Assembly: GCA_043228905.1 (NCBI GenBank)
Contig: JBHGNT010000007.1
Location: forward strand, 21,638,001 to 21,702,000
Direction: 5' to 3'
Length of the DNA stretch: 64,000 bases
From: Azolla caroliniana
Lineage: Eukaryota > Plantae > Polypodiophyta
A program made the translations under genes and the position numbers. Below, in pieces: positions 2,029-24,000 of this stretch. The notes under the pieces are model-generated. The model worked only from the letters and a program-made list of their open reading frames with translations. It did no database searches and was not told the origin of the DNA. The first letter of the stretch is position 1. Each line of letters starts with the position of its first letter.

Positions 2029-2599
2029 TTGTTACTTAGGTTTCTTTATTCATTTCAGGGTATCCCCCCCCACCCCCAGTGGCTATTTGTTGTCTCGGAT
2101 AACTATTCCACGTGTTATTTGAGCAATTGTATCAATTTCCTATCTCTAGATGTACACATGTTTTTTCTTTCCTTACCGAGTATCTAGTCAAAATCATCCT
2201 CGCTTTGGAGGTTTGACTATCAAACTTTTTAAGGGAAACAAAGAAATCAAGGGACTTTTTCAATGATTAATTGCCGACTACGATATAGTTATGACCCAAT
2301 ATAGCTTCAAGGTTCATAATGGATGCATAAGGACCAAGTGATTATGAATTTTGCTCCCAAGGTGATATACACTATTTTACTCTTGGAGATATGTTTACCA
2401 CCATGTCATGGCAAGGATTGAGCCCTATGACCTATGCATACATATGCCAAGGACTTGGCCATTAAGCAATCTAATAGTTGTAATAATTATATTATGACAT
2501 AATCTTATAAAGGGTTGAACTCTATGTGAATGTGAACGTGTGGAAGCGTATTACAAACCGGCTCTACCGGATAGCAACAGTAGAGAGAAAGGTTCAATG

Positions 2600-3197
2600 T
2601 GTTGGGATTTCGGTCCCTTTCGGATGGGATGGTCGGATATCGGAGATGAATGCCGACAAGCCCGGTTTCGGTTTCGGATCCGAATGACGAAGACCCCGGC
2701 TTCGGTGCCGGATGACGAATGTACCCGGAGAGCGATCCGGATGCAGGGACATATCCGTGAATATGTTCGCTACGAGCCCCCTGAGGCTATAGTTGTAAAT
2801 AGCCCAAAGTCATATAAGTATAAATATGACTTAGGGCAAACAGTTTTTCTGTTGCTTCTCATTTTTCTGTTTTTCCACTTTAGAGGAGTGAAGAGAGAGC
2901 AGCCGTGCGAGAGAGAAAGAGGTAGACGCCTCTGTGTATTTCCGCCGCCTGTGGCGAGGACAGCGAGCTCAAGGTCGTCGCCTTGGAGCTCGTCATTGTA
3001 TACTTCTCTGTATAGTGTTGTTTGGAGTCTTGTACTCCCGTGGTTTTTCCCCGTTTAGGGTTTTCCACGTTAATCCTTGTGTACTCGCGTTTCTTCGTTT
3101 TGTTTCTACGTGTGTTTCCTATTTTCTGCTCCATTGATCCGCGATTAATCGGTTGTGGCCGAGATAAGAAGGTGGATAGAAGGGCCTATTCCTTACA
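2600..3197 (+). repeat. 5' LTR of copia A
   Basis: TGTTGG...TTACA, direct repeat of 7311-7908, followed by the PBS. Confidence 0.97.
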
Positions 3198-3200
3198 AAC

Positions 3201-3212
3201 TGGTATCAGAGC
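3201..3212 (+). promoter_or_regulatory. Primer-binding site (tRNA-iMet) of copia A
   Basis: TGGTATCAGAGC, 3 nt after the 5' LTR. Confidence 0.95.
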
Positions 3213-3226
3213 GACTGTTGCAGAAA

Positions 3227-6200
3227 ATGGAAGGCGGCGGCAGCGGGCAGCCGATGATGATGGTGCTGAATGCGCAGAATTACGCCGACTGGAAGATCAA
3301 GATGGAGGATCTTCTGATTGTTCGGGACCTGTACGAACCGATTGACAGGTCGGAAATACCGAAAGGGGTACTTGAGTCGGAGTGGAAGCTCCTGAACCGG
3401 AAAGCCGTAGCGACGATCCGACAATATGTCGATGTAAGCGTCCTACAACATGTGGCGAACGACACCAACGCATATGAGATGTGGAAGAAGCTGTCGGGCC
3501 TCTACGAGAGGAAGAATGCGTTGAACCGGACCTCCCTGATGAGGAAGATAGTGAACCTCAAGTACCGGGACGGCGAGAGTATGGTTGAACACGTAAGCAC
3601 GTTCATGGGATTCGTGAACCAGCTTGCGGCGATTAAGTTCCCGTTGGAGGATGCAATGCAAGCCATCATCCTGATGTGTACATTGCCAGAAAGCTGGGAG
3701 AACTTGGTGGTGACTCTCAGCACCTCCTGCACCGAAGATAACTTGTCCTTACAAACGGTAAAGACAAGTATTTTGAATGAAGAAGCGCGTCGGAGAGATA
3801 AAGAACCGGCCTCCGACCCGAAGATGTTGTTTACCGAATCGGATCGGGGAAGACAATGGAACCGGAGTCCGCAAAGACGGGAGAAGTCGGGGACCCGGTC
3901 GCAGTCAAGAGGAAGGCCCACATGCTTCCACTGTGGGAAGCCGGGGCACTTCCGAAAGAATTGTCGGCATTACCGAAAAGACAATGGAACCGACAACACC
4001 GATTCGAAGAAGTCACCGGAGAGAAACGGTGCATACCGGGGAGCCACGGACCGGAATGGTTCGGATCGGCGAGGACAGGACCGGAAAGGAACAACGGCAC
4101 TCGCGGCAAGTGAGGAAGAAATCATGCTCATCACCGAAGAAGGTGAGCTAAACGTTGCCGGCGATGAGACGACCTGGGTGGTCGATTCCGGAGCATCGTT
4201 CCACCTGACCCCGGAGAGAAGATACTTCTCATCCTACACAGCCGGTGAGCATGGCTGTGTTCGGATGGGAAATGAAGGTACGTGCCGGATTGCCGGCATA
4301 GGAGACGTGTGGCTGATGACATCAACCGGATGCAAGCTGCTGCTGAGGAATGTGCGACACGTTCCGGAGGTCCGATTGAACCTGATCTCGGCCGGGAGGC
4401 TAGACGATGAAGGCTACACAGGTAGCATCCGGAACGGCGTAATGAAGTTCAGCAAGGGGAGCCTGATAGTGGCTCGGGCCCGGAAAGTCAACACACTGTA
4501 CCTGATGAATGCCCGGTTATGTCCGGAAGAACTGAATGTGGCAGCCGACACTGCCGGTGAGCTGTGGCACAAGAGACTGTGCCACATGAGTGAGAAGGGG
4601 ATGAAGAGGCTTGCAGAAGACAACCTTATTCCAGTGAAGCATGTGCACCTGGAGAAGTGCACCGACTGCCTGGCCGGTAAGCAGAACCGAACCTCCTTCC
4701 ACTCAAGGCCACCGACGAGACGTAGCGCACCATTGGAGTTGGTGCACACTGACGTGTGTCAGGTAGAGACGAAGTCACATGGCGGAGCCCAGTACTTCGT
4801 AACATTCATCGATGATCATAGCCGAAAACTGTGGACGGCACCGATGAAGACAAAGGACCAAGTGTTGTCCGTCTTCAAAGAACTCCATGCGAGAGTGGAA
4901 AGAGAATCCGGCAAGAAGCTGAAAGCGATACGAGCGGATAACGGAGGGGAATACCGAGGGCAGTTCCAGGAGTACTGTCGCTCGAAGGGAATCCGACTCG
5001 AGTTTACTGTGCCGAAGACGCCGGAACTGAACGGGCTGGCCGAGAGGATGAACCGGACCATAATGGAGCGGGTCCGGAGTATGCTGGCGCATGCGAAATT
5101 ACCCAAGGGGTTTTGGGCTGAGGCAATGTCGACGGCGACATACGTGATAAACAGATCACCCTCAGTACCTTTGGACGGAGACACGCCGCAGAAAGTGTGG
5201 ACTGGTAAGGAAGTGTCCTACCGGCATCTGAAGGTGTTCGGGTGTCTCGCATACGTGCATGTGGCAAAGGACCGGAGAGGAAAGCTAGATCCGAAGACCC
5301 GGCCATGCATATTCCTCGGTTACGGCGACGACGAGTTCGGCTACCGAGTATGGGACCCGGTCGACAAGAAGATATTCCGGAGTCGTGATATCATCTTCAT
5401 GGAGAACAAGACGCTCGCCGACTGGGAGTCGGAGAAGAAGATGAAGAGCTCCAAGTCGACCGGTGAGGATCAACTCTACGAGGAGCAGTCCCGACCGGCA
5501 AGGGACCGGTTAGCACTCGAGGATCCGGCCGAAGACAGTGAAGACACAGAACCGGCCGAAGAAGATGAAAATGATACCGGAACCGGCCCCGATCCCGAAA
5601 TGGTCTCGGATGAAGAAGAATCGGAAGAACCGGTTACCGAAGCTCCGGAACGGAGATATCCTCTAAGAGAGAGAAGGGCCCCCCGGAGATTTCCGGAACC
5701 AGAGCACGTGCTGCTAACCGACGAGGGGGAGCCGGAGAGCTTTGAAGAAGCGAAGCATGACACCCAGAGCCGCAGGTGGTTGAGTGCCATGCAGGACGAG
5801 ATGGATTCCCTGCATGAGAACCACACATATGAACTTGTGGAGTTGCCGAAGGGAAAGCGGGCACTTCGAAACAAGTGGGTGTTCAAGCTGAAACCGGGAG
5901 ATGCCGGAAACCCCCCGAGATACAAAGCCAGGATCGTGGTGAAGGGGTTTCAGCAAAAGAAGGGCGTCGACTTCGACGAGATATTTGCCCCGGTAGTGAA
6001 GATGACCTCCATCCGGACGGTGCTGAGCATAGCGGCAAGCATGGACCTCGAGGTAGAACAGATGGACGTGAAGACAGCATTCCTTCACGGTGACCTCGAA
6101 GAAGAAATCTACATGCAGCAACCGGAAGGATTCGAGAAGAAAGGGAAGGAGCACCTGGTATGCCGGTTGAAGAAGAGCCTTTACGGACTGAAGCAGGCTC

Positions 6201-7300
6201 CCCGGCAATGGTACCGGAAGTTCGACTCCTTCATGACCGACGAAGGGTACCTCAAAACGCAGTCCGACCACTGCGTGTTTGTGAAGAAGTTTGAAGGAGG
6301 AGACTTCCTAATACTCCTCCTGTACGTGGACGACATGTTGATCGTCGGACGGGACCAGGTCAAGATACGGATGCTGAAGAAGGCTCTTCACCGAACCTTC
6401 TCAATGAAGGACCTGGGTCCGGCGAGGCAAATACTAGGGATGCACATCATCCGGGACCGGAAGAAGAAGCAGTTGTGGCTGTCACAGGAGAAGTACGTGA
6501 CAAAGGTGCTTCAACGGTTCAACATGTCGGAAGCAAGACCGGTCGGATCGACCCTCCCGGCAAACTGCAAGCTGACCAGCAAGCAAAGTCCCAAGACAAA
6601 GGCTGAAAAGGAGGATATGATGGAAGTGCCGTATGCCTCAGCCGTCGGGAGCTTGATGTACGCCATGGTGTGTACGAGACCGGACATAGGATATGCAGTC
6701 GGAGTGGTGAGCCGGTACATGAGCAATCCCGGCAAAGAGCACTGGAACGCGGTCAAGTGGATACTCCGATACCTGAAGGGCACGGCAAACGTGTGCCTCC
6801 GATTCGGCTCCGGTAAGCCCGAACTCGAAGGCTTTACTGATTCTGATATGTCGGCTGATGCAGATACCAGCCGGTCCACATCAGGGTATGTGATGACGTA
6901 TGCAGGGGGAGCTGTTTCGTGGCAGTCGAGGCTGCAGAAGACGGTTGCGTTGTCAACCACGGAGGCGGAGTACATGGCGGCTGTTGAAGCCGGCAAGGAA
7001 ATAATATGGATGAAGGACTTCATTAGAGAGCTCGGTATCCGGCAAGAGGAGTACCGACTCTACTGCGACAGTCAGAGTGCCATCCACCTTGCGAAGAACG
7101 CAGCCTATCACTCCCGGACGAAGCACATCCAGCGAAGATATCACTGGATCCGGGAAAGGATAGAAGACAAGGAGTTCGTGCTGACGAAGATCCACACCGA
7201 CGAGAACGGGTCGGATATGCTGACCAAGGTGCTCACACCCGACAAGCTGGAAGCATGCCGGAAGAGGATCGGATTGGAAAGACATCCCATGCCGAAGTGA
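3227..7300 (+). CDS. Gag-Pol polyprotein of copia A (~1357 aa)
   Basis: First ATG after the PBS is at 3227. Gag (YADWKIKMEDLL), zinc knuckle CFHCGKPGHFRKNC, PR WVVDSGAS, IN (LWHKRLCH..CTDC, HTDVC, DNGGEY, NGLAERMN), RT (QMDVKTAFLHG, LYVDDML), RH (FTDSD, YCDSQSA, SDMLTK). No stops. Confidence 0.97.
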   Translation: MEGGGSGQPMMMVLNAQNYADWKIKMEDLLIVRDLYEPIDRSEIPKGVLESEWKLLNRKAVATIRQYVDVSVLQHVANDTNAYEMWKKLSGLYERKNALNRTSLMRKIVNLKYRDGESMVEHVSTFMGFVNQLAAIKFPLEDAMQAIILMCTLPESWENLVVTLSTSCTEDNLSLQTVKTSILNEEARRRDKEPASDPKMLFTESDRGRQWNRSPQRREKSGTRSQSRGRPTCFHCGKPGHFRKNCRHYRKDNGTDNTDSKKSPERNGAYRGATDRNGSDRRGQDRKGTTALAASEEEIMLITEEGELNVAGDETTWVVDSGASFHLTPERRYFSSYTAGEHGCVRMGNEGTCRIAGIGDVWLMTSTGCKLLLRNVRHVPEVRLNLISAGRLDDEGYTGSIRNGVMKFSKGSLIVARARKVNTLYLMNARLCPEELNVAADTAGELWHKRLCHMSEKGMKRLAEDNLIPVKHVHLEKCTDCLAGKQNRTSFHSRPPTRRSAPLELVHTDVCQVETKSHGGAQYFVTFIDDHSRKLWTAPMKTKDQVLSVFKELHARVERESGKKLKAIRADNGGEYRGQFQEYCRSKGIRLEFTVPKTPELNGLAERMNRTIMERVRSMLAHAKLPKGFWAEAMSTATYVINRSPSVPLDGDTPQKVWTGKEVSYRHLKVFGCLAYVHVAKDRRGKLDPKTRPCIFLGYGDDEFGYRVWDPVDKKIFRSRDIIFMENKTLADWESEKKMKSSKSTGEDQLYEEQSRPARDRLALEDPAEDSEDTEPAEEDENDTGTGPDPEMVSDEEESEEPVTEAPERRYPLRERRAPRRFPEPEHVLLTDEGEPESFEEAKHDTQSRRWLSAMQDEMDSLHENHTYELVELPKGKRALRNKWVFKLKPGDAGNPPRYKARIVVKGFQQKKGVDFDEIFAPVVKMTSIRTVLSIAASMDLEVEQMDVKTAFLHGDLEEEIYMQQPEGFEKKGKEHLVCRLKKSLYGLKQAPRQWYRKFDSFMTDEGYLKTQSDHCVFVKKFEGGDFLILLLYVDDMLIVGRDQVKIRMLKKALHRTFSMKDLGPARQILGMHIIRDRKKKQLWLSQEKYVTKVLQRFNMSEARPVGSTLPANCKLTSKQSPKTKAEKEDMMEVPYASAVGSLMYAMVCTRPDIGYAVGVVSRYMSNPGKEHWNAVKWILRYLKGTANVCLRFGSGKPELEGFTDSDMSADADTSRSTSGYVMTYAGGAVSWQSRLQKTVALSTTEAEYMAAVEAGKEIIWMKDFIRELGIRQEEYRLYCDSQSAIHLAKNAAYHSRTKHIQRRYHWIRERIEDKEFVLTKIHTDENGSDMLTKVLTPDKLEACRKRIGLERHPMPK

Positions 7301-7310
7301 AGGGGGAGTT

Positions 7311-7908
7311 TGTTGGGATTTCGGTCCCTTTCGGATGGGATGGTCGGATATCGGAGATGAATGCCGACAAGCCCGGTTTCGGTTTCGGATCCGGATGACG
7401 AAGACCCCGGCTTCGGTGCCGGATGACGAATGTACCCGGAGAGCGATCCGGATGCAGGGACATATCCGTGAATATGTTCGCTACGAGCCCCCTGAGGCTA
7501 TAGTTGTAAATAGCCCAAAGTCATATAAGTATAAATATGACTTAGGGCAAACAGTTTTTCTGTTGCTTCTCATTTTTCTGTTTTTCCACTTTAGAGGAGT
7601 GAAGAGAGAGCAGCCGTGCGAGAGAGAAAGAGGTAGACGCCTCTGTGTATTTCCGCCGCCTGTGGCGAGGACAGCGAGCTCAAGGTCGTCGCCTTGGAGC
7701 TCGTCATTGTATACTTCTCTGTATAGTGTTGTTTGGAGTCTTGTACTCCCGTGGTTTTTCCCCGTTTAGGGTTTTCCACGTTAATCCTTGTGTACTCGCG
7801 TTTCTTCGTTTTGTTTCTACGTGTGTTTCCTATTTTCTGCTCCATTGATCCGCGATTAATCGGTTGTGGCCGAGATAAGAAGGTGGATAGAAGGGCCTAT
7901 TCCTTACA
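7311..7908 (+). repeat. 3' LTR of copia A
   Basis: Direct repeat of 2600-3197, preceded by the PPT. Confidence 0.97.
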
Positions 7909-8451
7909 CAATGGAAGCTTAACACATAGAATATGCACGGGAGAGATAGAGAGAGAGCAGAACGTAAACTCTATTCAAAAATTAATAACACTCTATAACT
8001 CTATACATACAATATGCTTGATAGCACTATTTATACAAGTCCTTGAAGGACTGGCGGAAGCACCATGTACTTCAATGCTCATACGAGTGGCTGACACTAA
8101 CTACGAGGACTCTGTCTACCAAGTAGTCTAGACGCGTATAGGCTACTACTAGCCTTCTGGTGCACATTTGAATACAGCTCCCCGATCAGGCTCATGGTTT
8201 CGGATATCATCTGGTTCTTCCCTCCGGATACCGATCCGGATCCAATTGAACTTGCTCGCTCAACACTCCCCCCCTCAAGCTCAACTTGACGTCGGATCGT
8301 GGTGTCAGTGTCTGTAGTAGCCGGTCCTTGCTCGCGCTCCTCGTCCGGTCCGGTTCTGCTTCCCACGACCCTTCCGGTTCTGCACTCCTTGACCTCCTTG
8401 GTCGGCTTGTCTGCTCAGCAGGCCCATCTCAACTCCCTTGTTGTTATGACT

Positions 8452-11400
8452 TTAGTGCTTGTCGAGCCATTGGTTCCTCCGTTTCGGTGTTGACTTCCGC
8501 TTGGCCTTTAGTTGATCCGGCTCTTCCGAATCCAACTGTTGAACCGGCTCTTCCGAATCTGCTTCCTCTGATTCGTTCCATCTCTTGTCTGAGTTGATAG
8601 TCTCCAACTCGTCTTCCGTTTTTAGGCCCGTCACCACATCGGACCACATTTGGGTCTTGGCCTTCTTCCAATCGGCTTTGTCCTTCTTGACTCTGCCGCC
8701 GCTGCCGTTTGCTCCGACTGGTTCGGATGTGCCGATTCCTTCGGTCGGCTCGGATTCCTTTATCTGCTTATCTCCCCCCTTGGTTCTTTCTTCCTCTTCG
8801 GCTACTTGTCCGACGGTGCCATCCGTTCCCGTTCCTGTTCTCCCCCTCAAGTGCAGCACATTGAGATGTTGAATCCCAAGCATCTCCGAAAAATGTTGCA
8901 ACTTGTCCGATTGGAGTGGCTTGGTGAAGATGTCAGCAACTTGACGATCCGTGTGAACATACCGAAGTTCAACTTCACCGCTCAGGACCCGCTCACGAAC
9001 AAAGTGATAATGCACTTCTATGTGCTTTGTTCAAGCATGAAATACAAGGTTCTTGGCGAGTTGTATGTTGCTTATGTTGTCACAATAAATCAGGATCGGG
9101 GTCGGCACCTGGATCCAGAGGTCTCGCAGAAGTTGCCAAAGCCAGATGGCTTCACAGGTGGCAATGGTAGCGCCCCGGCATTCAGCCTCAGTGCTCGACA
9201 GAGCCACTGTTGGCTGCTTTTTGCTACTTCACGCAATAGCCGCGCTACCAAAAGAAAACATCTAACCAGAGGTGGATCGACGATCCGATGCATCACCAAC
9301 CCAGTCGGCATCGGTATATCCGACTAGCTTCCCAACTATACCATGTCGGTATAACAATCCCTGGTCCTTCATGCTGCTAACATACCAATGTGCGCACTGA
9401 AGGTGCTCGACGATCGTCTTCTGCATGAACTGGTTGATCACCCTGACTAGATAACTAATGTCGGGTCGAGTGATTGTCAAGTATATGAGGCTTCCGACAA
9501 TTTGTCGGAACAATTTCTCATCGCAAGGCGGTCCGGAGTCAGGACATAGCTTCAGGTTTCGGTCCAGGGGTGTAGAGATCGGTTGGCATTCCGTCATGCT
9601 GAACTTCTACAACATATTCAACACATAATGGCATTGTGAGAGCAATATGTTGTCGGGGGTCTGGATCACCTCGATCCCAAGAAAATAATGAAGGTCCCCC
9701 AGGTCCTTCATTTCAAATGCGTCCGACAGTTGGGACTTCACTTCGCCGATTTCATCGAGTTTGGGTCCGGTGATGACTAAATCATCTACATAAAGCAAAA
9801 TGCAAACCGGACCGTTCCGGATGAACAATGAAGAGTTGGACTTAGAGGCCACAAACCCCATCTTACGCAACCGGTGCGTGATCTTTGCATTCCAAGCTCG
9901 GGGGGCTTGTTTCAAACCGTAAAGCGACTTCTTGAGTCGGCACACTGCCGAGTTGTTCATCTCTGATTGGAAACTGGGGGGTTGGGTCATATAGATCCGT
10001 TCTTCAAGGTCACCTTGAAGAAACGCATTCTTCACGTCCATTTGGTGAAGATGTCATCCCCTTGTCGCAGCAACAACCAGTACCACACGAACCGTCGCCA
10101 TCTTCGCTACCGGAGCGAAGGTCTCATCGTAATCGATTTCGTGGGTCTGTGCGTATTCCTTTGCCACTAACTGGGCCTTGTACTGGTTGACTGAACCGTC
10201 AGCATTGTACTTCACCTTATATACCCATTTGCAACTGATCGATTTACACTGTCAGGGAGAGTCAACCAGGTCCCATGTGTCGTTGGCATCAAGTGCCCGC
10301 ATTTCTTCCTCCATAGCAGCACGCCAATTTGCGTCTTTCGTTACTTTTGCGTAGCTCTCAGGCTCATGCACTTCTGCCACCTTAGTCATGTACGCATAGT
10401 GATGCGCCATGTACTCATTGTATTCGTACCTCATGACGGTTTTCTTCTGACGGGTTGATCGGCGTAACTCTTCGTTACCCAGTTTGAGGCCCTTCTTGGC
10501 TGGTTCGGACTTCCTTTCTGAAGATCCGCCTTCTTCCTTTCCGGGGTCAGATTCGTTCCGATCCGACCCTTCACAACCGGTACCGTATTCCAACATCTTC
10601 TTCTTCCCCTTCTCTTTGTGCGTGAATTGTCTCCTCGGTTCCTTGCGCGGGGAGAGCACAACAAAGTCTCCACTACTCGCCAGTTCTTCACCCGATTAGT
10701 CATCCCGAATCAGTCGCTCATTTTGCCCACTTAGCTAGAATGAGCTCGGACTCTCTTCTAGAGTGCCGAAGTTTTCGTCTTCTACCTGGACCTCTTCGGG
10801 CTCACTAGCCTCATCTTTTGGAATCGGGTTGGATTCGGACGTTGGAGTCGGTAGAGAGTACCATGATGCCGACTCATCAAACTCAACATCTCGGCTTACT
10901 CGGACCTGCTTAGTCCAGGTGTTATAACACTTATACCCCTTCTGCTCATGTGAGTAACCAACTAGGATGCACTTCTCCGACTTCGGATCCAGCTTCCTCC
11001 ACTTCTCATCCGGTATATGCACATATGCTATGCTATCGAATATCCGAAGGTGCCTCAAATTCGGCTTACGCCCGAAATACAGTTCGTGTGCAAACACCTT
11101 GTCTCTGATCCGGTTTTGGATGTAGACGATTGTCCGTATTGCCTCAACCCAGTAGAATTTGGGCATGCTCTTCTCCTCCAGCATTGCCCTCGCCGCGTCA
11201 ACAATCAACCGGTTCTTTCTTTCAGCCACACCGTTTTGTTTCGATGTGTACCTGCAGTTGAATTCTCTCCGAATTCCCTTCTACTGCAGATAACTGTTGA
11301 ATTGGCCATAAAAGTATTCTTTTCCGCCATCCGACCGCAGGCACTTGAACTTCCTCTTCGTTTCCCTTTTGACTAAGCTTTGAAGGTTCCGGAAACAGTC

Positions 11401-12644
11401 GAAGACTTCACTTTTCTCCTCGATGAGGTAGATCCACATGTGCCAGTTGTAGTCGTCGATGAAGGAGACGGAATACCGAATCCCGCCAAGACTAACATTT
11501 TGTGTCGGTCCCCATACATCCGAATGGATTAAGTTGAGCTTGTTACGGCTCTGGTTTCGTTTGGTGGGGAAAGGAAGCCGGTGTTGCTTCACAAGTTGGC
11601 AGGCTTCACAAATTTGGGCTTTCCGACCACTGAATTTCGGCAATCTGAACACAACCTATTTTGATTGTAGGTCTTGAAACCTCCGGTAATTGACGTGGCC
11701 AATCCGTTTGTGCTAGAGATCGATGTCTGATTCAATATTTTGTCCTTTGGCAAACATGGCAGTGTCGACGCCATTAGTGTTGAGGATGAACATCCTCCCT
11801 TCTCTGGGCCCTTGTGCAATTATCCGGCCTTCTTCCTCGATGAAGCACCAGAGGTGCGTAAACCGCACCTGCATCCCCTGGTCGACGATTTGTCCAATCG
11901 ACACCAAGTTCTTTGTGATAGTCGAAATGTGTAGTACGTTCATCAACTTCCCCTTTTGTCCAACATGGCTTAAAGGGACTTCTCCGACATGCACAATCAG
12001 GTGAGGGATGTCGTCTCCGGTTTCGACAATCCCCGGTTGTTCCGGTTTCTCCAAAAAAGAGAACCATTCTTCATGGCTCGTCATGTGGTTGGACGCTCCG
12101 GGATCAACGTACCATACTTCCTCCGATTTGGAAGTAGTCTTCTTCGTCGAGTTAGCCTTGTGCTTCATCACGAAGGTTGGTCCTTTACCGGTCTTCCCGG
12201 TTCCAGATCCTTCTGCATAGTGCGAGCTTTGCCGGTTTTCCCGACCGGCTTTGCCAGATCTAGATTTGTTCGAATCAGCGCACTTTTTCCAGCACTCGCT
12301 TTCCATGTGGCCTTTCTTGCCACAGTACCAACATTCTGTGTCGGCCTTTCCTTGCCGGTTTCCGGCACTGGCTTGACTCCCCTTGCTTGTGGAGGGTCCG
12401 AAACTACTGTCGGCACTGTCTCTATGCCTTCGGTCTTGCTCCTGTCGGCCATCTCCATTGCGTGCTGAACCACCGCGGCCACCACGGCCACGAGGCCGAT
12501 CCGCCCCCGTGTACAACATCCAATTGTCCGATTGAGTGGTCCTAGACCCACTCATGTGGTTTTCTTTGACCATCAACATCGATTGTAAGTCAAAGAAGGA
12601 CAGTGGTTACTCCCGGGTGCAAATTGTCGTCCGGATTGGCCCGT
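8452..12644 (-). pseudogene. Disrupted gag(C-term)-PR-IN-RT-RH of copia B
   Basis: ORF fragments 11713-12579 (CWYCGKKGHMESEC, DPGASNHMT), 11281-11652, 10735-11229, 10252-10659, 9607-10041 (MDVKNAFLQG, LYVDDL), 9262-9597 and 8452-9015, separated by stops and frameshifts. Confidence 0.92.
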
Positions 12645-13290
12645 TGTCGAGGTATTCCTCGCAGATGCGTGGAATGAGGCGGGGCCTCGAGGGTCTTGTA
12701 CCGAAGAGCAAGAGACAAAGGAGAAGGGAAGGGACCCACTACGTGTGGGCGTAGATTCACAGGGGCACAGCCCTTCGACACAAAGACGCGAGTGGGACAC
12801 CGACGCAGAGAGACACGAATGTATGTATATATATATATTAACAAGGACAAACAACAAGAAGCACGAAGTCGGTTACAACCGAACAGGCCGGCGAATAGAT
12901 GCCGATGCCTGTTCGTAAACGCTCAGAAAGAAAGGAGTAGGTTGGAGGTGCTGCCGGAAGCACTCGGGCATTCCTCAGAGCAGCGCGAGCCTCTCGAAAA
13001 CCTGCACAGAAAGAAGCTACGGAGTATGGAAGAGAGAGAAGCCTTCGGCCGACAACCCGACAGCACTTCGTCCTCTCTAACCGTGATCCTTCCCCCCTCC
13101 TCGTCTCCCTCCTTTTATAGGCAAGGAAGGAGCCGTTTCCCATTAACTTCCTACCTACCGAATCTACCTACCTAGGATCTTCTATGTACCTAATTCTCTC
13201 TTATGTACAACATAAGGCGTACGTGCATGAAGAGCCGGTTCCTACGCTCCGGTGCACCGATTCCGCTTGTGGACGGTTTTCTTCACGACA
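12645..13290 (-). repeat. 3' LTR of gypsy C
   Basis: Direct repeat of 19325-19970. Confidence 0.96.
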
Positions 13291-13363
13291 TCCGCCCCCA
13301 CCTAACCGCGCATCCACCGGCATGCGCCAAATTGAGTTGGGACGGAGAAAACCGGTCCAGCCT

Positions 13364-16300
13364 TCATTCCCCGCCCGTCGGTTCTTCCTCGGTTTCTGAT
13401 CGTTCGTCGTCGCGGTCCAGGTTAACCGGATCCAGCTCGTCGTCGTGACACTTCTTGAACGCTTTGATCCGCTTCCCAGCTACCGGTATCGCCATTCTCG
13501 TGCCGTTGAGTTCCGCCAGATGGTACGTCCTGTTGTCGTTGGCGCTTTGTACCACGTAAGGCCCGAACCACCTTCTTGCGAACTTCCGTGTCACTCGGTG
13601 CTGGTTGTCGAGGCTGCTGTCGTAGACTAGCACCCAGTCGCCTTCCTCGATCTTCTTCGGTCGGAGCTGGTGCGTTCGGTCAAACCGGGCTTTGTTCCTC
13701 GTCCTTGCCACCCGAAGCTTTTCCGCAGCCTGCTCCACGTCCTCCGGTCTTCGCTCGAGCTGTCGTATGCGCGCCGCCAACAGTTCCTCCCGGCTCATCT
13801 CGTCTCTCCAGTCCACGGTTGCCCATGAGGAGATCGTACGTTCCATCGGCATGATCAGCTTTTGCCCAAACATGAGCTCTGCCGGCATGAATCCGGTTAC
13901 CGAACTGTGCGTAGTTCGGTACGCCCACAACGCGTAAGGCAACAGTCGCGGCCAGTTCCCGACTTGACCTCCGCATGCCCGAACTAACGCCTTGACGATC
14001 GGTCTGTGTCCGCGCTCCACCTTCCCATTCGCCTCCGGATTGTACGCAGTGGTAAGCGAGAGCTTGACCCCTAGCCGGTCGAACAGCTCCTCGGCCTCTT
14101 CGGCGTCCAACTCCCCGCGATCAGCCACGATCTTCCCGACGCACCCGTACCAGCATATCACGTCCTCGATCAGGAACCAACATACGGCCGTGGTCGTTTT
14201 GTTCTGAAGGGCTCGGCCTTCCACCTGGTTCGTCAGATCTTCCCGAGCCAGGACCAGATACCGCATCTGTCCTACTCCCATCGGCATCGTCACCAGATCT
14301 ACCATCCATTTGAAGTGGATGGTCGGAGGGTACGTAGGGTGAAGCTCGTCCCGATGTCGGACTATGGAGTGCATCTGACAGCTCTCGCAAGTTGTCACGA
14401 ACCAATGCACGTCCCGATACAGTCCCGGCCACCAGTACTTCCCCTTTATCTTCTCGAACGTGGCCCACATTCCACGGTGTCCAGCCCAAGGGCTGTCGTG
14501 GTAGGCCGTCAGCAGCTCCTCCTGTTCTTCCTTCATCGCCACCACCCGGAGCGGGACGCCGTTCCTCTTCTTCGGGTGCTTCCATAAGTATCCGTCCTGG
14601 AGAAAGAATCGGTATGCTTTCTTCCGGATCCGGTTGGTCTCGTCCCTCGTCCACGACGCATCCGACGTCATTGTCCTCAAGAAACCACCGATCTGGAGCC
14701 ACTCGCCGTCGTACTTGCTCTCGTCGAAGCCGTTAAGCGCCGGAGTGCTCGTCCCATCGGTCGTCACGTACGCCGCCTCGAAGAAGTCCACGCCGACTTC
14801 TTCGTCCTCCGAAACCATGCCGCCCTCGTTATCAAACCTCGCCCTCGAAAGCATGTCGGCCATGGCGTTGTCCTTTCCGGAAATGTGTCGTATTTCCGGG
14901 TCCAGGGACTTGATGTACGCTATCCACCTAAGCATCTCCAGGTCCGGTGTCGCGCATCCGGAAACCATGCCGAGAATTGGCAGGCAATCCGTCTCGATAA
15001 TCACTTCTGTCCCGATCAGGTAGTCTTTGTCGGCCTTTACTGCCGAAACGATACCCCAGAGTTCGCGTTTAACCTGGGCGTACCCTCGCTGTCGCTCACT
15101 GAGGACCTTTGCGCCGAATCGGATCGGGAACCGAATGCCGTCCTCGTCTTCTTGGTTGACGACCCATCCGATCCCGGTCGGACTCGTATCCACCGTTATG
15201 TATACGGGGTACCCTTCTCGTAGACAGCCTTCCGGAGCACCGGTGCTGCCGTAAGAGCTTCCTTCAGCTTCCGGACCGACTCCATGTGCTCATCTCGCCA
15301 CTCGAATTTTCGCCCCTTCTTCAGCAACCCGTATAGCGGCTCCGCAACGTGGGCGTAATGCGGGATCCATATGTGGTAGAATGTGCACGCCCCCAGGAAC
15401 CTCCGAACTTCCGTAACCGAGCTACAGTCGGTCTTCATCGCAGAGATGGCTTCTACTTTTGCCGGAGACGGTTTCCGGCCATATGGTCCACATAGATGTC
15501 CGACCACCAGGATTTATGATTGCCCGAAGGCCGATTTCTCCCCGGAGAAGGTGAGCCTCGCAACCTCTAGCCTTTGTAGCACCTTCTCGCAGTCGTCGAT
15601 GTGTGTTGCCACGAATCGCCGGCATCCGTCCGGCCCGAGTGTCTCGTCCTTCTCTTCCACCGGGCACCCCTTGATCGGGATGTCGTCTAGAAATGGCATG
15701 GTGATGTCCGGGATGCAATCCCTCAGTACCTTGTTCATTGCATTCACCATGTGGGCCACCGAGTTGGTCCCTCCTTGTGGCAGGGTACACATTCGCACTA
15801 GGCCGAGGGGAGTTCACATCGTCGTAATGTCTCTACTCTTCACGGCTAGCTGGAACTGGTCGTACCCCGAGTACAGGTCACCGACCGAGTAAATCGACCT
15901 TCCGACGAAGGCCTCCGCGAACTTGTCTATGGTCGGTCCGATTCCTGCGTTCCGAATGGTCACTTTGTTGACCGGCTGCAGGTCTTGAATGAAGCGCAAT
16001 GTTCCGTTTTTCTTTGGTACGGTAAACCACCGGTTCGAGTATGGGGCACTCGACGGTTCGAGAATGCCCATATCGACTATCTACCTCAACAGCTCCATCA
16101 ACTTCGGGATGTGAGCTCTCGGTATTGGAATCGGCTTGAGATTCCACGGCACATGCGGTACCGTGAATATCACCATCGGCTCCACGATTGTCGGGTCTAC
16201 GCACCCGATCTCTTCTGGTGAGAATGCGAAGGCTTTCCCGTGCCTTCCGAGCATTCTCCGAAACCGGTCTTCCTCCGCCGGCAGTAGGAACCCGCCCCCA

Positions 16301-16860
16301 CCGATTTTGAGCTCCCGGAGCGTCCCGTCGGTGAAGGTGTGTCCTATGCAGACCGGATCTCGCAAACTGGGGTCTGACGCAACCCCTCTGATCCGAGACT
16401 CGCTGCCCTCCGGTAAGGGTGCCGCGACTGGCCTTACCTTCCGGTCCACAGTCTTGTACTTCGTGCTAACCCGGGCCGTCTGATCCGACCCGAGCCCCTG
16501 ACTGAAGTTCGCGATGACTTCGTACATCTCTTCGGAACATACCGGTATCGTCCGTTCTTCGTTAAGGTCTTCTCCGGCTACCTCCCTCAGCATCCCCAAG
16601 GTGTCGTCGAAGGAGACCGCCTCCACAGCTCCGTTGATTTCCTCGTCCGGGCCGAGAACTCCGCACGCTCGAAGTCGCTCCTCCGCCCTTGCCTTTTCTC
16701 GGCCAACGATGCCAACTATCATACACCCTCCGTCGTTGGAGAAGAAAAATTTTCTACCTATCGTACAAGGTTTCTTCGGTTTCGGTTCTGTCGTACAGCG
16801 GTGGGGTCTTTCCCGAGTGTTCGGACTGTCTCGGCCCCACGCCTTGGCAGCCCTCTCTAA
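13364..16860 (-). pseudogene. pol (RT-RNaseH-integrase) of gypsy C, disrupted
   Basis: RT (PYSNRWFTVPKKNGTLRFIQDLQPVN, DLYSGYDQ, LPQGGTNS, PFLDD), RH (DTSPTGIG, ETDC, NAMADMLSR), IN (H..H..CESC, DLV, DRGE, EANGKVERG, GPY). Premature stops at 16081, 15814 and 15514 and a frameshift near 15200. Confidence 0.93.
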
Positions 16861-16866
16861 AAATCC
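16801..16866 (-). promoter_or_regulatory. Putative -1 programmed ribosomal frameshift signal (G_GAU_UUU plus pseudoknot)
   Basis: ORF1 ends GAG GAT TTT TAG. The -1 frame is open from this point into pol. A 6-nt spacer is followed by GGGCTG/CAGTCC and GTGGGG-CCGAG/CTCGG-CCCCAC complementarities. Confidence 0.7.
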
Positions 16867-19308
16867 TCTCGGTTCTTGCCACCGAGGGATTCGCGATTTC
16901 GCTCGTGGTTCGGTCGCACCGTCAGAAATTGAACCGAATGGCGCTCGTCCTGGCTTTTGACCCTCGCGTAGGCCGAACCGTTGTCTAGCACCTTGGTCTC
17001 CATCCGCGCCGCCATGATGTATGGTTCCCCTAATATGACCGGGTGCGAGGACGTCTCCTGTACAAAGAAGTGCTGGTCAACCTCGACGTCGCCGATCTTG
17101 ACTCGCACATTCGGGTAGGCCCCGTGCAGTTCCTCGGTGGCGCGCGTCGCCGCCCGTATCTTCCACCCGTGCTTGGTGTTGATCAGCCACTTTCCCTTCT
17201 TATAGAAGTCCATGGACATCAGGTTTATTTCCGAACCGTGGTCCACTAGTGCCACCACCGGTTCCTGAACATCTCCGATCTTTACCGGGGTCTCCGTGGT
17301 CGCTCGGGCCCAGTGTGGCCTCGAATAGTGGCTCTCCGCCCACTCATCTTCCAGCGCCAAGTCGTCGATGTGTGTCGTCCGCACCTCCACCGGTCTTTCC
17401 GGTTCCGTCTCCGTCGACAGCCTCTTCCGCTTCACCAAGTCCACAATGGAGTCGTGGAACTCCTTCTTAGCGATCCCTAGCACCTCCCGCAATGACAACT
17501 CCACTTTGCTGTCGAGGATCCATTCTTCTAGGACCTTTCGTAGGTCCGTGGTCCTTTCTATTTCCGTCCCCAGTCGGTATCCGCCCTTCCTGGGGTTATC
17601 TTGCGCGCTGGACCCACCGGCATCGTTCCGTCGTTGCCCGAATCGGGTCTCGTATCGTTGTGAGGGCCCGGCCGCTCCGGCTTTCCCTACTCGTTTGTCT
17701 TCTACCAGAGCCTCGTAGTTCCGGCAGGCGGCTTCTACGAAGCCTGTCTTCTCCTCGACCGGGTCGCTCCACCCGGTTATTTCCCGGACCCGTCTCTCAG
17801 CGCGGTCCGCTTCATCTTTCCTCAGCTGTGCGTCGGCGAGGCCTTCCAGCATTGCCAACCAGAATCCTTCTTTGCTCTCCTTTCGGGCCTCGCTGCCCCC
17901 GACCCGAATACCGGCCGACGCCGAGTAGTGGTTGCCCGAATCGGGTCTCGTATCGTTGTGAGGGCCCGGCTGCTCCGGCTTTCCCTACTCGTTTGTCTTC
18001 TACCAGAGCCTCGTAGTTCCGGCAGGCGGCTTCTACGAAGCCCGTCTTCTCCTCGACCGGGTCGCTCCACCCGATTATTTCCCGGACCCGTCTCTCAGCG
18101 CGGTCTGCTTCATCTTTCCTCAGCTGTGCGTCGGCGAGGCCTTCCAGCATTGCCGACCAGAATCCTTCTTTGCTCTCCTTTCGGGCCTCGCTGCCCCCGA
18201 CCCGAATACCGGTCGACGCCGAGTAGTGGATGGCCTCCACGTGTTGGGCTGCTGCCTCTTCCATCAGTCTCTTCATACCTCCTCGCCCGTCGTTCCGGTT
18301 TAGGGCCCTTCTGGTATCGCCGGCGTGCACCCGGCCTTCCCATAGGTACACCACCCAGTTCCTCAACGCCTCTGCGAAATCGCCGCAGTCCTTCCGAATG
18401 TGGCCGACCTCGTCGCACCACATGCACCTGTTCCTTGCTACCGGCCGTCGGTCACGAGCCGGTTCGCCGCCTTCCCTTCGAGTCTAGGCGATCTGGAGAT
18501 CCTTTATCGCCCGCGTCAACTCCTCCAACGCTGCTCCTCCGGACGAGTCATTGACCATGCCGATCGGAGCCGACCCGGTTTCGAGCCACTCCCGGGTCTC
18601 TGCCCTTCGCCCTTGCGGTGCCGGTTCAAGCCTCCTTGCTATGACAGAGCCCGCATCGGCCGCCCCGTTGTCAGCCCATTCTCGCCATTTGTCGAAACGG
18701 CCACAGACTCTCTTAACCGCAGCCCAGTCGGTCGTCAACCCGTCTTCGGTTTCTAGTAAGGAGCCAACTTGATCCCGGTCCCGCTCGTCCACCGACTTGA
18801 CGAACAGTAGGACACGACTCGTATCCAGAACGGTTCGGTCAAGCGCCGAGAGGCGCGCAAAGCGTTCCTCAAACTCCCGGAGGAGTGCCGACGCGTTTCT
18901 TCCCTTGCCGGGGAACTCCACCCATTCCATGAAGTCCCGTTTCGAAAGTCGGAGCGCGTCGTCCAGCCCATATTTTTCTACGAGTCGGCCTTCGAACTCC
19001 TCCCAGGTACGGCTCTCCGCCCGTACCTCGAGCACCTCCGCATGGATGCTCGGCATCGCCACTCGAGGGAACCCGGCAAGACGCCTCTCTTCCGGAATGT
19101 CCCGCATCAGCATTTCTGCCCCGTAGGACGCCAAATACTTCGTGGCATCCTTCCCGTTGAACCGGCCGATCGTACCGACGACCACCTCAATGGCTCTGTC
19201 GAGGGCGCCGGTGCCCTCGCGTGCGCTCAATACCCGATCCACGGCCGAAGCCATGGCCTCCGCAAGATCCGACCCCTTCATCTTCTGCTCTTCTGCCACC
19301 TCTTTCAT
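16857..19308 (-). pseudogene. gag-protease ORF1 of gypsy C, disrupted by a stop (18484) and a 298-bp duplication
   Basis: Gag-like region (GRFNGKDATKYL), zinc knuckle CMWCDEVGHIRKDC, aspartic protease ALVDHGSEINLM...VILGEPY. Confidence 0.88.
17633..18228. repeat. 298-bp tandem duplication inside gypsy C ORF1
   Basis: 17633-17930 is repeated at 17931-18228 with ~6 transitions. The peptide AMLEGLADAQ...ETRFGQ appears twice in the ORF track. Confidence 0.95.
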
Positions 19309-19321
19309 GTCGGGTTCACCA
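19304..19321 (-). promoter_or_regulatory. Primer-binding site complementary to tRNA-Trp
   Basis: TGGTGAACCCGACATGAA, 3 nt inside the 5' LTR. It matches 17 of 18 nt of the complement of the plant tRNA-Trp 3' end as I recall it (...TTCACGTCGGGTTCACCA). Confidence 0.8.
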
Positions 19322-19324
19322 AGA

Positions 19325-19970
19325 TGTCGAGGTATTCCTCGCGGATGCGTGGAATGAGGCGGGGCCTCGGGGGTCTTGTACCGAAGAGCAAGAGACAAAG
19401 GAGAAGGGAAGGGACCCACTACGTGTGGGCGTAGATTCACAGGGGCACGGCCCTTCGACACAAAGACGCGAGTGGGACACCGACGCAGAGAGACACGAAT
19501 GTATGTATATATATATATTAACAAGGACAAACAACAAGAAGCACGAAGTCGGTTACAACCGAACAGGCCGGCGAACAGATGTTGATGCCTGTTCGTAAAC
19601 GCTCAGAAAGAAAGGAGTAGGTTGGAGGTGCTACCGGAAGCACTCGGGCATTCCTTAGAGTAGCGCGAGCCTCCCGAAAACCTGCACAGAAAGAAGCTAC
19701 GGAGTATGGAAGAGAGAGAAGCCTTCGGCCGACAACCTGATAGCACTTCATCCTCTCTAACCGCGATCCTTCCCCCCTCCTCGTCTCCCTCCTTTTATAG
19801 GCAAGGAAGGAGCCGTTTCCCATTAACTTCCTACCTACCGAATCTACCTACCTAGGATCTTCTATGTACCTAATTCTCTCTTATGTACAACATAAGGCGT
19901 ACGTGCATGAAGAGCCGGTTCCTACGCTCCGGTGCACCGATTCCGCTTGTGGACGGTTTTCTTCACGACA
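19325..19970 (-). repeat. 5' LTR of gypsy C
   Basis: Direct repeat of 12645-13290; TATA-like CTATAAAA on the minus strand near 19795. Confidence 0.96.
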
Positions 19971-20452
19971 CCGTACCATTGTGTTAGACCATCGAGACAA
20001 ATTTGGACCATCTCGTCTTCGTCCACCGTCACATTAATGGACCCGAGCGCGTCACAAATCTCTTTTATCTTGGTGGTGTAGTCCGTAACCGACATGTCTC
20101 TTTGCCGAATGTTGTTCAGCTCTTGCCGGAGCTGCAACTTTCGGGCTATGGTACTCACGGAGAAAATCTTTCGTAGATTTTCCCAGGCCTCCTTCGGCGT
20201 CTTTGCATCCTTGATGTAGTCGAGCATCTGATCGTGCACACCGAATGTGAGGCAGTACAATACTCAGCTCGCTCCTTGCTCCCATGCCGGGAAGTCCTTG
20301 TGTGCCGGCTCCGACGCTACCTCGTTGGTTCCTTCCACGTAGCTCCAATATCCATGCCCCAGCAGGTACTGGTGCATTTTATATGACCAGCACGCATAGT
20401 TGCTCCAGTCAAGCTTCTCTATCGGAAGTGAACTCGCCATACCTCTGTCCAT
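19971..20452 (-). pseudogene. N-terminal gag of copia B
   Basis: LPIEKLDWSNYACWSYKMHQYLLGHGYWSYVEG...KTPKEAWENLRKIF...MSVTDYTTKIKEICDALGSI, with an internal stop at 20264. Confidence 0.9.
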
Positions 20453-20545
20453 ATCTTTCTCGGTCTATCCTTACCGGGTATCAGGGTTTGTCTTCAAAAG
20501 CGTATGTCGACTGCAGAGGTTCTCAACCCTCACGCTCTGATACCA

Positions 20546-20643
20546 TGTGAATGTGAACGTGCGGAAGCGTATTACAAATCGGCTCTACCGGATAGCAACA
20601 ATAGAGAGAAAGGTTCAATGGAAGCTTAACACAGAGAATATGC

Positions 20644-20710
<67 letters not shown>

Positions 20711-21033
20711 AAGAGAAAGAGAGAGCAGAACGTAAACTCTATTAAAAAATTAATAACGCTATATAACTCAGTACATACAATATGCTTGACAACACTATTT
20801 ATACAAGTCCTTGGAGGACTAACGGAAGCAGCATGTACTTCAATGCTCATACAAGCGACTGACACTAACTATGATGACTCTGACTACCTAGTAGTCTAGA
20901 CGCGTATAGGCTACTACTAGCCTTCCGGTTCACATTTGAATCCGGCTCCCGGATCTGTCTCTTCGATCTAGATATCATCCGGTTCTTCGTTGTGGATACC
21001 AATCCGGATCCAGTTGAGCTTGCTCGCTCAACA
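20546..21033 (-). repeat. 5' LTR of copia B, containing an expanded (GA)n microsatellite
   Basis: TG...CA termini. The (GA)n run at ~20646-20725 is much longer than in the 3' LTR. Confidence 0.93.
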
Positions 21034-24000
21034 CTCTAGAACTTCCTAGAACATTCTAGAAAACCCTAAATTGTTCCACGATCCACTATATAATGAAGGC
21101 TCCTCACTCTCTCACTACCTACCAGCATCTCGCATATTTCCTTCCATCATCATTCTCTCCCGCACACTCTATCCACAACTATCTCGTCTATCCCTTTCAT
21201 CACCACTCTTTCTCTTGCTCTTTCTATTGTTATTTTGTCTCATTTCTGATAGGAGCTCGTCCTCAAGATGGATGCCTAATATTCATTGTGTATCATGTGT
21301 TGGATTACATTTGTTGTTTGTTAGCAAACTAGCATCTCTATTTGTCATTATAGGTTGACTAACATTTTTTGTGCCAACAATTCATTGGCCAAATGGATAT
21401 CACATTGTCAATTGTCATGGCCTCATCGTCAACACTTAAACTTCTTTGGTAAAATGAAAGAAATAATGTATTAATGCAAAAAGAGAAAAAAAGGGGAAAG
21501 AATATTAACAAACAATCGAGAAAGAGGTAATATAATCTTCTCTTATAAATATATATGTATATAATGAAGTTGAGCAATAAAATACTTTCTATTGAAGTAG
21601 AAATAAAATATAGTTTTTTGAGAGAATAGTGGCAATGAATGAGAGAGAGAATAGTTTTCTTACAATCAAAGAGAGGGCTGTGGAAGTCGACGTTGGGAAG
21701 GTATCATATCTTCACTTATGGAATAGTCATGAAGGGGTAATGCCAACAAGAGATCAATTTGATAAAATGCATACTTAATTTGACTTGAGACGATTTTCCT
21801 AGAGTTTTATGTGTTTTTTAAATATAGTAAAGTAGTTTGTGTGTCATATTCTCTAAAGCCTTCAAAAGACATAAACCTCCATGAGCATATGTTATTGGAA
21901 GTTGGAACTATAGATACACTTAATTTGATAAAACTAATGGAAAATACAATCTTATTTGTCAAGAAAACCACAGTGATCTATTTTGTTTGTCATGCAACAC
22001 ATTCATCTTGATAATTACGAACCCATTTATAATGTAGTCTCATCGTTGCCATGTCTTGTTCAATCTAAGAGAATGTTTTGGCTGCTTCTTGTTAATCTAA
22101 GAGATCATATCCTTTAATTTATTATACCTAGACGTTAATGTGTCACAAGAGTATATTTCCAAACCCTTACAAGAGTCATCAATGTGTGGTTATTGGATAC
22201 CCCACAATTCCAACATGTTTAATTGAGATGTTGTACATGGGCATGCCTTGAATTCTCATTGTTTCTCTATGTAACATTAAGTGCACATATGTTTTATGCT
22301 CTAGTAATTAATGTTAGTATTTTTAATAGTGATATTAATGCTTGCAAGTCCGCAAACTAGCCCACAAGTTTGAATTTTGTTTTTGACAATACAACCTATG
22401 GTGCTATTACTACTAAAGGTATACTTTCCCATTGGATTCATGAGTGTGGTGTTATTGCTTTGATTTATCACTCAGCTCACACATCAAAGGGATGCCTCCT
22501 TATTCCACTAGTTGGACTCGTTTTTAAGGTGGTAATGCTATAACTTGAGATGTTATCGAACCAAGTATCTTAGGTAGACCTCACATGAACCCATATATAC
22601 ACTATGAGATTATGCAGCCAATATTGGATGACAATGCACTTGGCCATTCACAAAGCACTACATATTTATGTTTGGCAAAAAAACATGCACGACATAACTA
22701 CCAAAATGTAGTTTCAAAGGATGATACCACAATTGAATCCATAAAGAAAATGTTTTTTGAGCATGACATTTTTAAATACAAATCATATGTGTGGAGGATA
22801 ACATAAATTGTAGATAAGTCTCAAACTGTGTGTGAATGATGACATTATGTTTAAACTATTAAAATATGCTTATATGTAATTCACTATGACACCTCGAGTT
22901 CCAATCCAACATTGAATACTAAAGTGTGATTTTTCGCAAGTTGCCTTTAAATGTTGTAGTATGAAATGGCCCAAATTTGGGAACCGCCGAGAAGCAAGAG
23001 CCATGTCCTACTCAACTTTAATAGTTCGCTATCAATACTTGTAAACTTAGGAGAGAATTGCACCCCATAATAGACTTGCATTAACTTTCAAAAGTTGTTA
23101 GATAATTTCTACTTTAACCCGATTTTCGCTGCCTGCCCTCCTTGCTTACATGGCACATCACTAAAGAAGAATTTCATATCCTTTGTCTTTTTTACTCTTA
23201 TATAAATATCATATATCAAGTGGGATGTGAAATAGCCCCTTCCAATGACAAATTTGTTCATGCCTGTCCTGTGCCTTTGGTCTCCAATCACAACATATAT
23301 TAAATATGCTGGAATGTTGTTTAAAAACGTTATTTCGATTTCTTTTAATTGGAAATTGGAATATTTGATCGACCCGCATAAAGTCAACAAAATTCTTACG
23401 AGGAATGAAATAGCATACGTAAGAGATCATGCAATGTATCGAACTTTCTTGTATTGATTGCGTGATCACAAACTTTGTTGTCACTCAAGCGCACACTTTA
23501 TAACTTACATAATTCACTTGGACCAAATCATACGAACAACTCAACTTGTTCTCATATGTGAACTCATTATAGAATCTAAAGGTCCCAGAGCTAGGACAAA
23601 ACAGTGATGTTTGAATGTGAGCACAGAATCCGTGCATGTTCGTCCCCCGCACGGGTCTAAACTCCATGCATAGTACATGTTCTTGGTAACATCAGATGCA
23701 TAAACCCTAAACCCATTCTTCGGCGAGCAGTCGCAATAGAATGAGATGGAACTGCAAAATTGTGGTGGTTGACAAGGTGAAAGATGTTATTGGGCGGGGG
23801 CCATCATTGACAACAATGTTGGTAGAGAGAGAGAGAGAAGTAACTACTAACAATACTAGTCAATGGTGTCGATCACGTACTAGTACAAAAAAACAGACTC
23901 ACCTAAGTTAGTGAAAGGGACAAAACATCAACCTGGTCAATGGGAGCTACGGGGAGCATGTTCCTTCGGTCCGAGGGGTGAAAAAGTACCCGTGATCGAA

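What the first reader, a model, noticed from the sequence alone, without database searches (positions are those of the whole stretch)
19304..19321. tRNA-Trp primer-binding site in gypsy C
Seen: TGGTGAACCCGACATGAA lies 3 nt inside the 5' LTR. It matches the complement of the plant cytosolic tRNA-Trp 3' end (as recalled) at 17 of 18 positions. The single mismatch is a G>A at a CpG, which also creates an in-frame ATG. Known: most plant LTR elements prime with tRNA-iMet (as A and B here do), and Trp priming is best known from avian leukosis/sarcoma viruses and HERV-W. Inference: this marks a lineage outside the usual plant chromovirus/Athila/Tat sets.
Basis: partly seen in the sequence, partly recalled or inferred. 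Interest (0 to 1): 0.7.

Follow-up and report, generated by a model that had tools for sequence, protein, structure and literature searches.

The report
Ordinary Trp primer site, Phygy-type retrotransposon
This is a real 18-base match to the end of the host's tryptophan tRNA in a broken copy of a common plant jumping gene that likely belongs to the published Phygy lineage, whose members mostly carry this same site, so it is ordinary.

Summary
Window 19304-19321 (-) lies 3 nt inside the 5' LTR of a 7.3-kb Ty3/gypsy element and matches the host's own tRNA-Trp(CCA) 3' end at 17 of 18 bases; most sibling copies match 18 of 18. The G>A mismatch and its ATG are private CpG decay: 9 of 567 copies carry it, 7 carry the mirror change.

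Trp priming is not odd here: the perfect site occurs 5,527 times in this genome. It is also published for plants: Neumann et al. 2019 give tRNA-Trp for 81% of Phygy and 75% of TatI elements. This family has the Phygy marks (4-bp NCGN target site, no extra RNase H, no chromodomain). It is about 0.7 kb shorter than the published range, and the defining tree test could not be run.

One side result: the base just after the site, opposite tRNA A58, is a mutation hot spot (A 299, G 250, C 17, T 1). It is likely a trace of reverse transcriptase stopping at methylated A58. An earlier scan note reported Phygy-like elements elsewhere in this genome.

The parts
19304..19321 (-). Primer-binding site, complement of the 3' 18 nt of host tRNA-Trp(CCA); mismatch at position 14 (19308)
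19303..19303 (-). Base after the PBS, opposite tRNA A58; hypervariable across the family (A here)
19322..19324 (-). 3-nt spacer between LTR end and PBS
   Evidence: same spacer at the main site of 30 of 30 top copies
19325..19970 (-). 5' LTR, 646 nt, TG...CA
12645..13290 (-). 3' LTR, 646 nt; 14 differences from the 5' LTR, all transitions (K2P 0.022)
13291..13303 (-). Polypurine tract abutting the 3' LTR (11 of 13 purines)
   Evidence: kept in 13 of 14 two-LTR copies
12641..12644 (+). Left copy of the 4-bp target-site duplication CCGT (NCGN)
19971..19974 (+). Right copy of the 4-bp target-site duplication CCGT
16860..19308 (-). gag-protease region, broken by a stop and a private 298-bp tandem duplication (17630-18225)
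   Evidence: DUF4100, below the curated cut-off; aligns to Riccia polyproteins; zinc knuckle and protease motif seen by eye only
15199..17076 (-). Frame holding the reverse transcriptase, with three in-frame stops
   Evidence: RVT_1, E 2e-11
13367..15289 (-). RNase H and integrase frame; no chromodomain hit

Best explanation
The site is an 18-base match to the 3' end of host tRNA-Trp, placed where it would prime minus-strand DNA synthesis in a broken copy of an abundant Ty3/gypsy family that likely belongs to the Phygy lineage. Shown: position, host-tRNA match, conservation across copies, 4-bp NCGN target site, domain order RT-RH-INT without extra domains, and a PPT at the other end. Inferred from established LTR-element biology: tRNA-Trp is packaged and anneals here, RT extends it to make minus strong-stop DNA, the PPT primes the plus strand, and the plus strand copies the tRNA up to methylated A58, which sets the 18-nt length. 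The single mismatch is most likely deamination of a methylated CpG after insertion, and the ATG it creates is a by-product.
For: Family match: 26 of 30 copies found by DNA similarity (not by the PBS pattern) are 18/18 and 4 of 30 have one mismatch. 567 copies fit the LTR-PBS-leader pattern; 9 carry the window's change and 7 the mirror change, as symmetric CpG decay predicts. The carriers of the window's change are scattered over the family tree (8 of the 9 as 7 separate places plus one adjacent pair shown). The rate, 3 of 92 per side, is like other CpG columns (median 4.7%). The 4 nt before the 5' LTR are NCGN in 83 of 86 copies and one transition away in the other 3, against 3.3% CpG in the window. 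Of 14 copies with both LTRs located, 8 have identical 4-bp flanks, 5 differ by one transition and 1 does not match. No aRH or chromodomain Pfam hit in the window frames or the two closest full Pol relatives scanned. The RT sits in a 36-row clade (SH-aLRT 100) with Riccia and Adiantum proteins; no named angiosperm hit among the 120 rows listed in each of two searches. Published Phygy profile: 4-bp NCGN TSD, tRNA-Trp 81%, no extra domain, no eORF; NCGN preference is stated to be unique to Phygy.
Against: No reference Phygy sequence could be put in the tree, so clade membership is by features. Most two-LTR copies are 6.7-7.6 kb (one 5.0 kb), below the published 7,656-9,968 bp. Phygy was defined as specific to Physcomitrella patens, and the host here was not identified. 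Priming itself and m1A58 in this tRNA were not assayed. Two host tRNA-Trp gene copies carry the base that would pair with the window's variant.
Confidence: 0.88

Rival explanations
1. It is a TatI element, the other plant lineage with tRNA-Trp priming and a 4-bp TSD.
For: TatI: tRNA-Trp 75%, 4-bp TSD. About 270 residues lie between the protease and the RT core, where TatI keeps its extra RNase H.
Against: That stretch has no RNase H-type hit at E<=1 in the window frame or in P0001 and P0002. TatI has aRH in 100% of members and is about 9.1 kb; NCGN preference is not described for it. No positive control for aRH detection was run.
Confidence: 0.03
2. It is an unnamed sister lineage of Phygy in non-seed plants: same primer and target preference, separate clade.
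For: Shorter than the published Phygy range; closest named relatives are liverwort and fern proteins, none from Physcomitrium; REXdb sampled few non-seed plants.
Against: The rare pair NCGN plus tRNA-Trp matches Phygy exactly. Phygy-labelled elements are already reported from a liverwort (PMC12885004, passages). Transposon proteins are often left out of gene sets, which may explain the missing moss hits (inference).
Confidence: 0.12
3. The mismatch is not decay but a faithful copy of a variant tRNA-Trp gene that primed this insertion.
For: 2 host gene copies match the variant 25-mer exactly, and ARAGORN loci show a further degenerate one.
Against: These are 2 among some 75 tRNA-Trp-like places, lie in tandem arrays and carry D-arm changes. 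The mirror change, which needs a different tRNA variant, is nearly as common (7 versus 9). The window copy has another CpG transition 10 nt downstream.
Confidence: 0.06
4. The new ATG is functional and gives Gag a 9-residue longer start.
For: It is in frame with gag.
Against: Present in 9 of 567 copies with no clade of its own; the window copy's coding region is broken.
Confidence: 0.01

Closest known systems
Phygy clade, non-chromovirus Ty3/gypsy (Neumann et al. 2019, PMC6317226; passages, sections 8, 13, 15 and Additional file 5 read)
   Same: tRNA-Trp PBS, 4-bp TSD with NCGN preference, no aRH, no chromodomain, no extra ORF, coding region fills the interior, non-seed-plant relatives.
   Different: About 7.0 kb against 7.7-10.0 kb; host not shown to be Physcomitrella; two overlapping frames (GAG-PROT, then RT-RH-INT) where the paper lists the organisation as not determined.
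TatI subclade (same paper)
   Same: tRNA-Trp PBS, 4-bp TSD.
   Different: No additional RNase H between protease and RT; shorter; NCGN target preference.
Selgy clade (same paper)
   Same: Short non-chromovirus, 4-bp TSD, no extra domain.
   Different: Selgy uses tRNA-Ala (90%) and averages 5.0 kb.
Retroviral 18-nt PBS ending at tRNA m1A58 (HIV-1, PMC8599865, abstract read); ASLV and HERV-W as Trp users
   Same: Full 18-nt match that stops just before A58.
   Different: No env; the RT groups with plant and fungal gypsy proteins; sharing tRNA-Trp implies no kinship with these viruses.

Membership tests
Ty3/gypsy LTR retrotransposon | TG...CA LTRs, PBS, PPT, TSD | tested here: met
Ty3/gypsy LTR retrotransposon | Domain order RT-RH-INT | tested here: met
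Phygy | RT-RH-INT phylogeny: clusters with Physcomitrella Phygy references | not testable with these tools
   Additional files 1 and 3 of PMC6317226 are too large to read; the tree holds no named Phygy reference
Phygy | tRNA-Trp PBS | tested here: met
   26 of 30 similarity-picked copies 18/18; host tRNA
Phygy | 4-bp TSD with NCGN preference | tested here: met
   83 of 86 5' flanks NCGN; 8 of 14 flank pairs identical, 5 one transition apart
Phygy | No aRH, no chromodomain, no extra ORF | tested here: met
   Pfam only, no positive control
Phygy | Size 7,656-9,968 bp (descriptive; the paper calls size a weak criterion) | tested here: not met
   13 of 14 two-LTR copies are 5.0-7.64 kb and the window copy is 7,326 bp, so all 14 fall below 7,656
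Phygy | Host is a moss (Physcomitrella) | not tested
   Host group was not determined
TatI | Additional RNase H between protease and RT | tested here: not met
Chromovirus | Chromodomain after integrase | tested here: not met
Athila / Ogre / Retand | 5-bp TSD, Asp/Arg/Lys primer, large size with extra ORFs or aRH | tested here: not met

The most novel reading that the evidence does not exclude
This lineage re-copies its primer site from the tRNA in each cycle, as retroviruses do and yeast Ty1/Ty3 reportedly do not. RT halts at m1A58 and sometimes adds a wrong or untemplated base, which is fixed after plus-strand transfer. The genome's 5,500 Trp sites would then be a fossil read-out of a tRNA modification and of the enzyme's end-addition bias (A > G >> C > T) in a plant retrotransposon.
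Probability: 0.45. Interest if true: 0.4.

Novelty: new member of a known kind. Interest (0 to 1): 0.15.

Why it matters
The finding as posed matters little: tRNA-Trp priming by short non-chromovirus gypsy elements of non-seed plants has been in print since 2019. Two modest points remain. Elements of this type are a very large part of this genome's LTR load (5,527 perfect Trp sites), with relatives in a liverwort and a fern, so the type is wider than the single moss it was defined from. And the hot spot next to the PBS gives a sequence-only way to ask whether plant gypsy elements inherit their PBS from the tRNA (retrovirus-like) or from the template (Ty3-like).

Tried and rejected
No tRNA gene lies in the window. 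A second tRNA-pairing site in the element: none; the only match above 9 nt is the PBS. The 'tRNA instead of PPT' reading that earlier scan notes give for another lineage in this genome: rejected for this family, since a G-rich tract abuts the 3' LTR in 13 of 14 two-LTR copies. Free re-randomising of the base after the PBS in every cycle: rejected, it is mostly inherited (15 changes against a shuffled mean of 30.6; 0 of 200 shuffles as low). Resetting of the PBS shown by lower CpG decay: not shown; its rate is close to other CpG columns. A named moss protein as a reference: none among the rows listed. A better match to another tRNA: the full host tRNA set was not compiled, only Trp and one His gene were compared; nothing can exceed the 18/18 of the family. 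Three older papers on errors at template ends, sought by recalled PMC ids, are not held. PMC12789967, PMC6894440, PMC2864245, PMC6911290 and PMC13468544 (passages only) added nothing on the primer. In the script only 14 of 41 long stretches yielded both LTRs; one search shows several others do hold a second LTR that the end-motif rule missed.

Full report
Observation. The element spans 12645-19970 on the minus strand. Its two 646-nt LTRs differ at 14 places, all transitions, and it is flanked by a 4-bp duplication, CCGT. A G-rich tract abuts the 3' LTR. Pfam gives RT, RNase H and integrase in gypsy order. This copy is broken: three stops in the RT frame, frame changes, and a private 298-bp duplication in gag.

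The primer. A search of the host genome found 75 places matching an inner tRNA-Trp motif, 40 exactly; ARAGORN called tRNA-Trp(CCA) in 10 of 10 loci given to it. The complement of the gene's 3' end plus CCA matches the window site at 17 of 18 and a sibling at 18 of 18, with predicted pairing of -28.0 and -33.8 kcal/mol; the match ends at tRNA position 59. Among 30 copies picked by DNA similarity, 26 are perfect and 4 have one mismatch. I did not compile the whole host tRNA set.

The mismatch. 567 places fit the family's LTR-PBS-leader pattern. The window's change occurs in 9 and the mirror change on the other strand in 7. Carriers are scattered over the family tree, and the rate is like that of other CpG columns. 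This is what deamination of a methylated CpG after insertion gives. The ATG is in frame, 9 codons before a Met shared by the common sibling sequences, and has no sign of use. A small rival remains: 2 host gene copies carry the base that pairs with the variant, but they lie in arrays and have D-arm changes.

How common. The perfect 18-mer occurs 5,527 times in this 523-Mb genome, about ten times the size of this one family. The 30 other sites inspected all follow an LTR-like end and a short spacer. Trp priming is therefore routine in this genome.

What lineage. Neumann et al. 2019 (PMC6317226) state that plant non-chromoviruses use several tRNAs including tRNA-Trp. Their Additional file 5 gives Phygy: 186 elements, 4-bp TSD with NCGN, tRNA-Trp 81%, 7,656-9,968 bp, no extra domain; and TatI: 4 elements, 4-bp TSD, tRNA-Trp 75%, aRH 100%. 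Here the 4 nt before the 5' LTR are NCGN in 83 of 86 copies (92 distinct loci after leaving out duplicates and the 25 loci fetched for rare variants; 6 lacked a locatable LTR start). Of 14 copies with both LTRs located, 8 have identical 4-bp flanks, 5 differ by one transition, 1 does not match. No extra RNase H or chromodomain was found. Named relatives are Riccia and Adiantum proteins, then fungal ones at 42-44%; the RT falls in a well-supported clade with the former (47 rows chosen from the hits). Against a plain Phygy label: the size is below the published range, the host was not identified, and no reference Phygy sequence was available, because Additional files 1 and 3 could not be read. 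Those files bear directly on membership. So it works like Phygy and is likely a member, but the defining tree test is open.

How it works. Shown are the parts and their conservation. Inferred from known LTR-element replication: tRNA-Trp anneals to the site and primes minus-strand synthesis; the PPT primes the plus strand; integrase inserts with a 4-bp stagger centred on a CpG. In HIV-1, m1A58 of the primer tRNA stops the plus strand (PMC8599865, abstract), which would explain an 18-nt site.

Side result. The base after the site, opposite A58, is A in 299 (by subtraction), G in 250, C in 17 and T in 1 of 567 copies. Genome-wide only 130 of 5,527 perfect sites are followed by the pairing base T. 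On a tree of 85 copies it needs 15 changes, fewer than shuffled labels (mean 30.6), so it is mostly inherited. But against columns equally left out of the tree it was reached by 0 of 298 columns in six replicates and 1 of 298 in two; the median for 103 common polymorphisms was 5. Elsewhere purine columns change to T more often than to C (399 versus 285 rows). A wrong or untemplated base added where RT halts at m1A58 fits this. Yeast Ty1 and Ty3 are reported not to inherit the PBS from the tRNA (PMC5371799, passages; PMC7472051, section 4.3), so this would be the retrovirus-like route. Cautions: the trees are FastTree with many weak forks; recombination at strand transfer could also raise the count; the search pattern fixed the next four bases for most copies; one ordinary column reached 17 changes. 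Errors at template ends are, as I recall, described for Ty1 and HIV-1 RT in 1990s papers that I could not open. Five library searches showed no listing that reports this hot spot in plant elements; the library lacks most subscription and older papers.

Verdict. Observation confirmed; interpretation partly supported; a new family of a known kind; interest low (0.15). The hot spot beside the PBS is the only part worth a follow-up.

Noticed in passing
window 19303 and family copies: The base after the 18-nt PBS is a hot spot that avoids T (A 299, G 250, C 17, T 1 of 567; T in 130 of 5,527 genome-wide).
   Followed up: partly
window 2524-21036: Nested stack: copia A (2600-7908, 5-bp TSD CAATG, LTR match 99.8%) sits inside the left LTR of copia B, and gypsy C sits in B's gag.
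   Followed up: partly
G000 C5 near 10.11 Mb, C8 near 17.80 Mb, C16 near 5.0 Mb (L036-L040): Tandem arrays of tRNA-Trp genes (units of about 0.4-1.2 kb), many with CpG-type changes; the genome also holds thousands of Trp-primed elements. Any link is untested.
   Followed up: no
L138-L167: Other Trp-primed families differ in spacer length between LTR and PBS (about 3-7 nt) and in small length changes right after the PBS; one site (L150) pairs 4 bases further into the tRNA.
   Followed up: no
L096-L135: Family copies often lie next to or inside other copies and related families; a subfamily with LTRs near 717 nt has short branches, suggesting recent spread.
   Followed up: no
window 17630-18225: Private 298-bp tandem duplication in gag of this copy, 98% identical units.
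   Followed up: partly
window 24600-56800: Many short tandem arrays (units 28-245 nt) and simple repeats in the AT-rich right part of the window; not examined.
   Followed up: no
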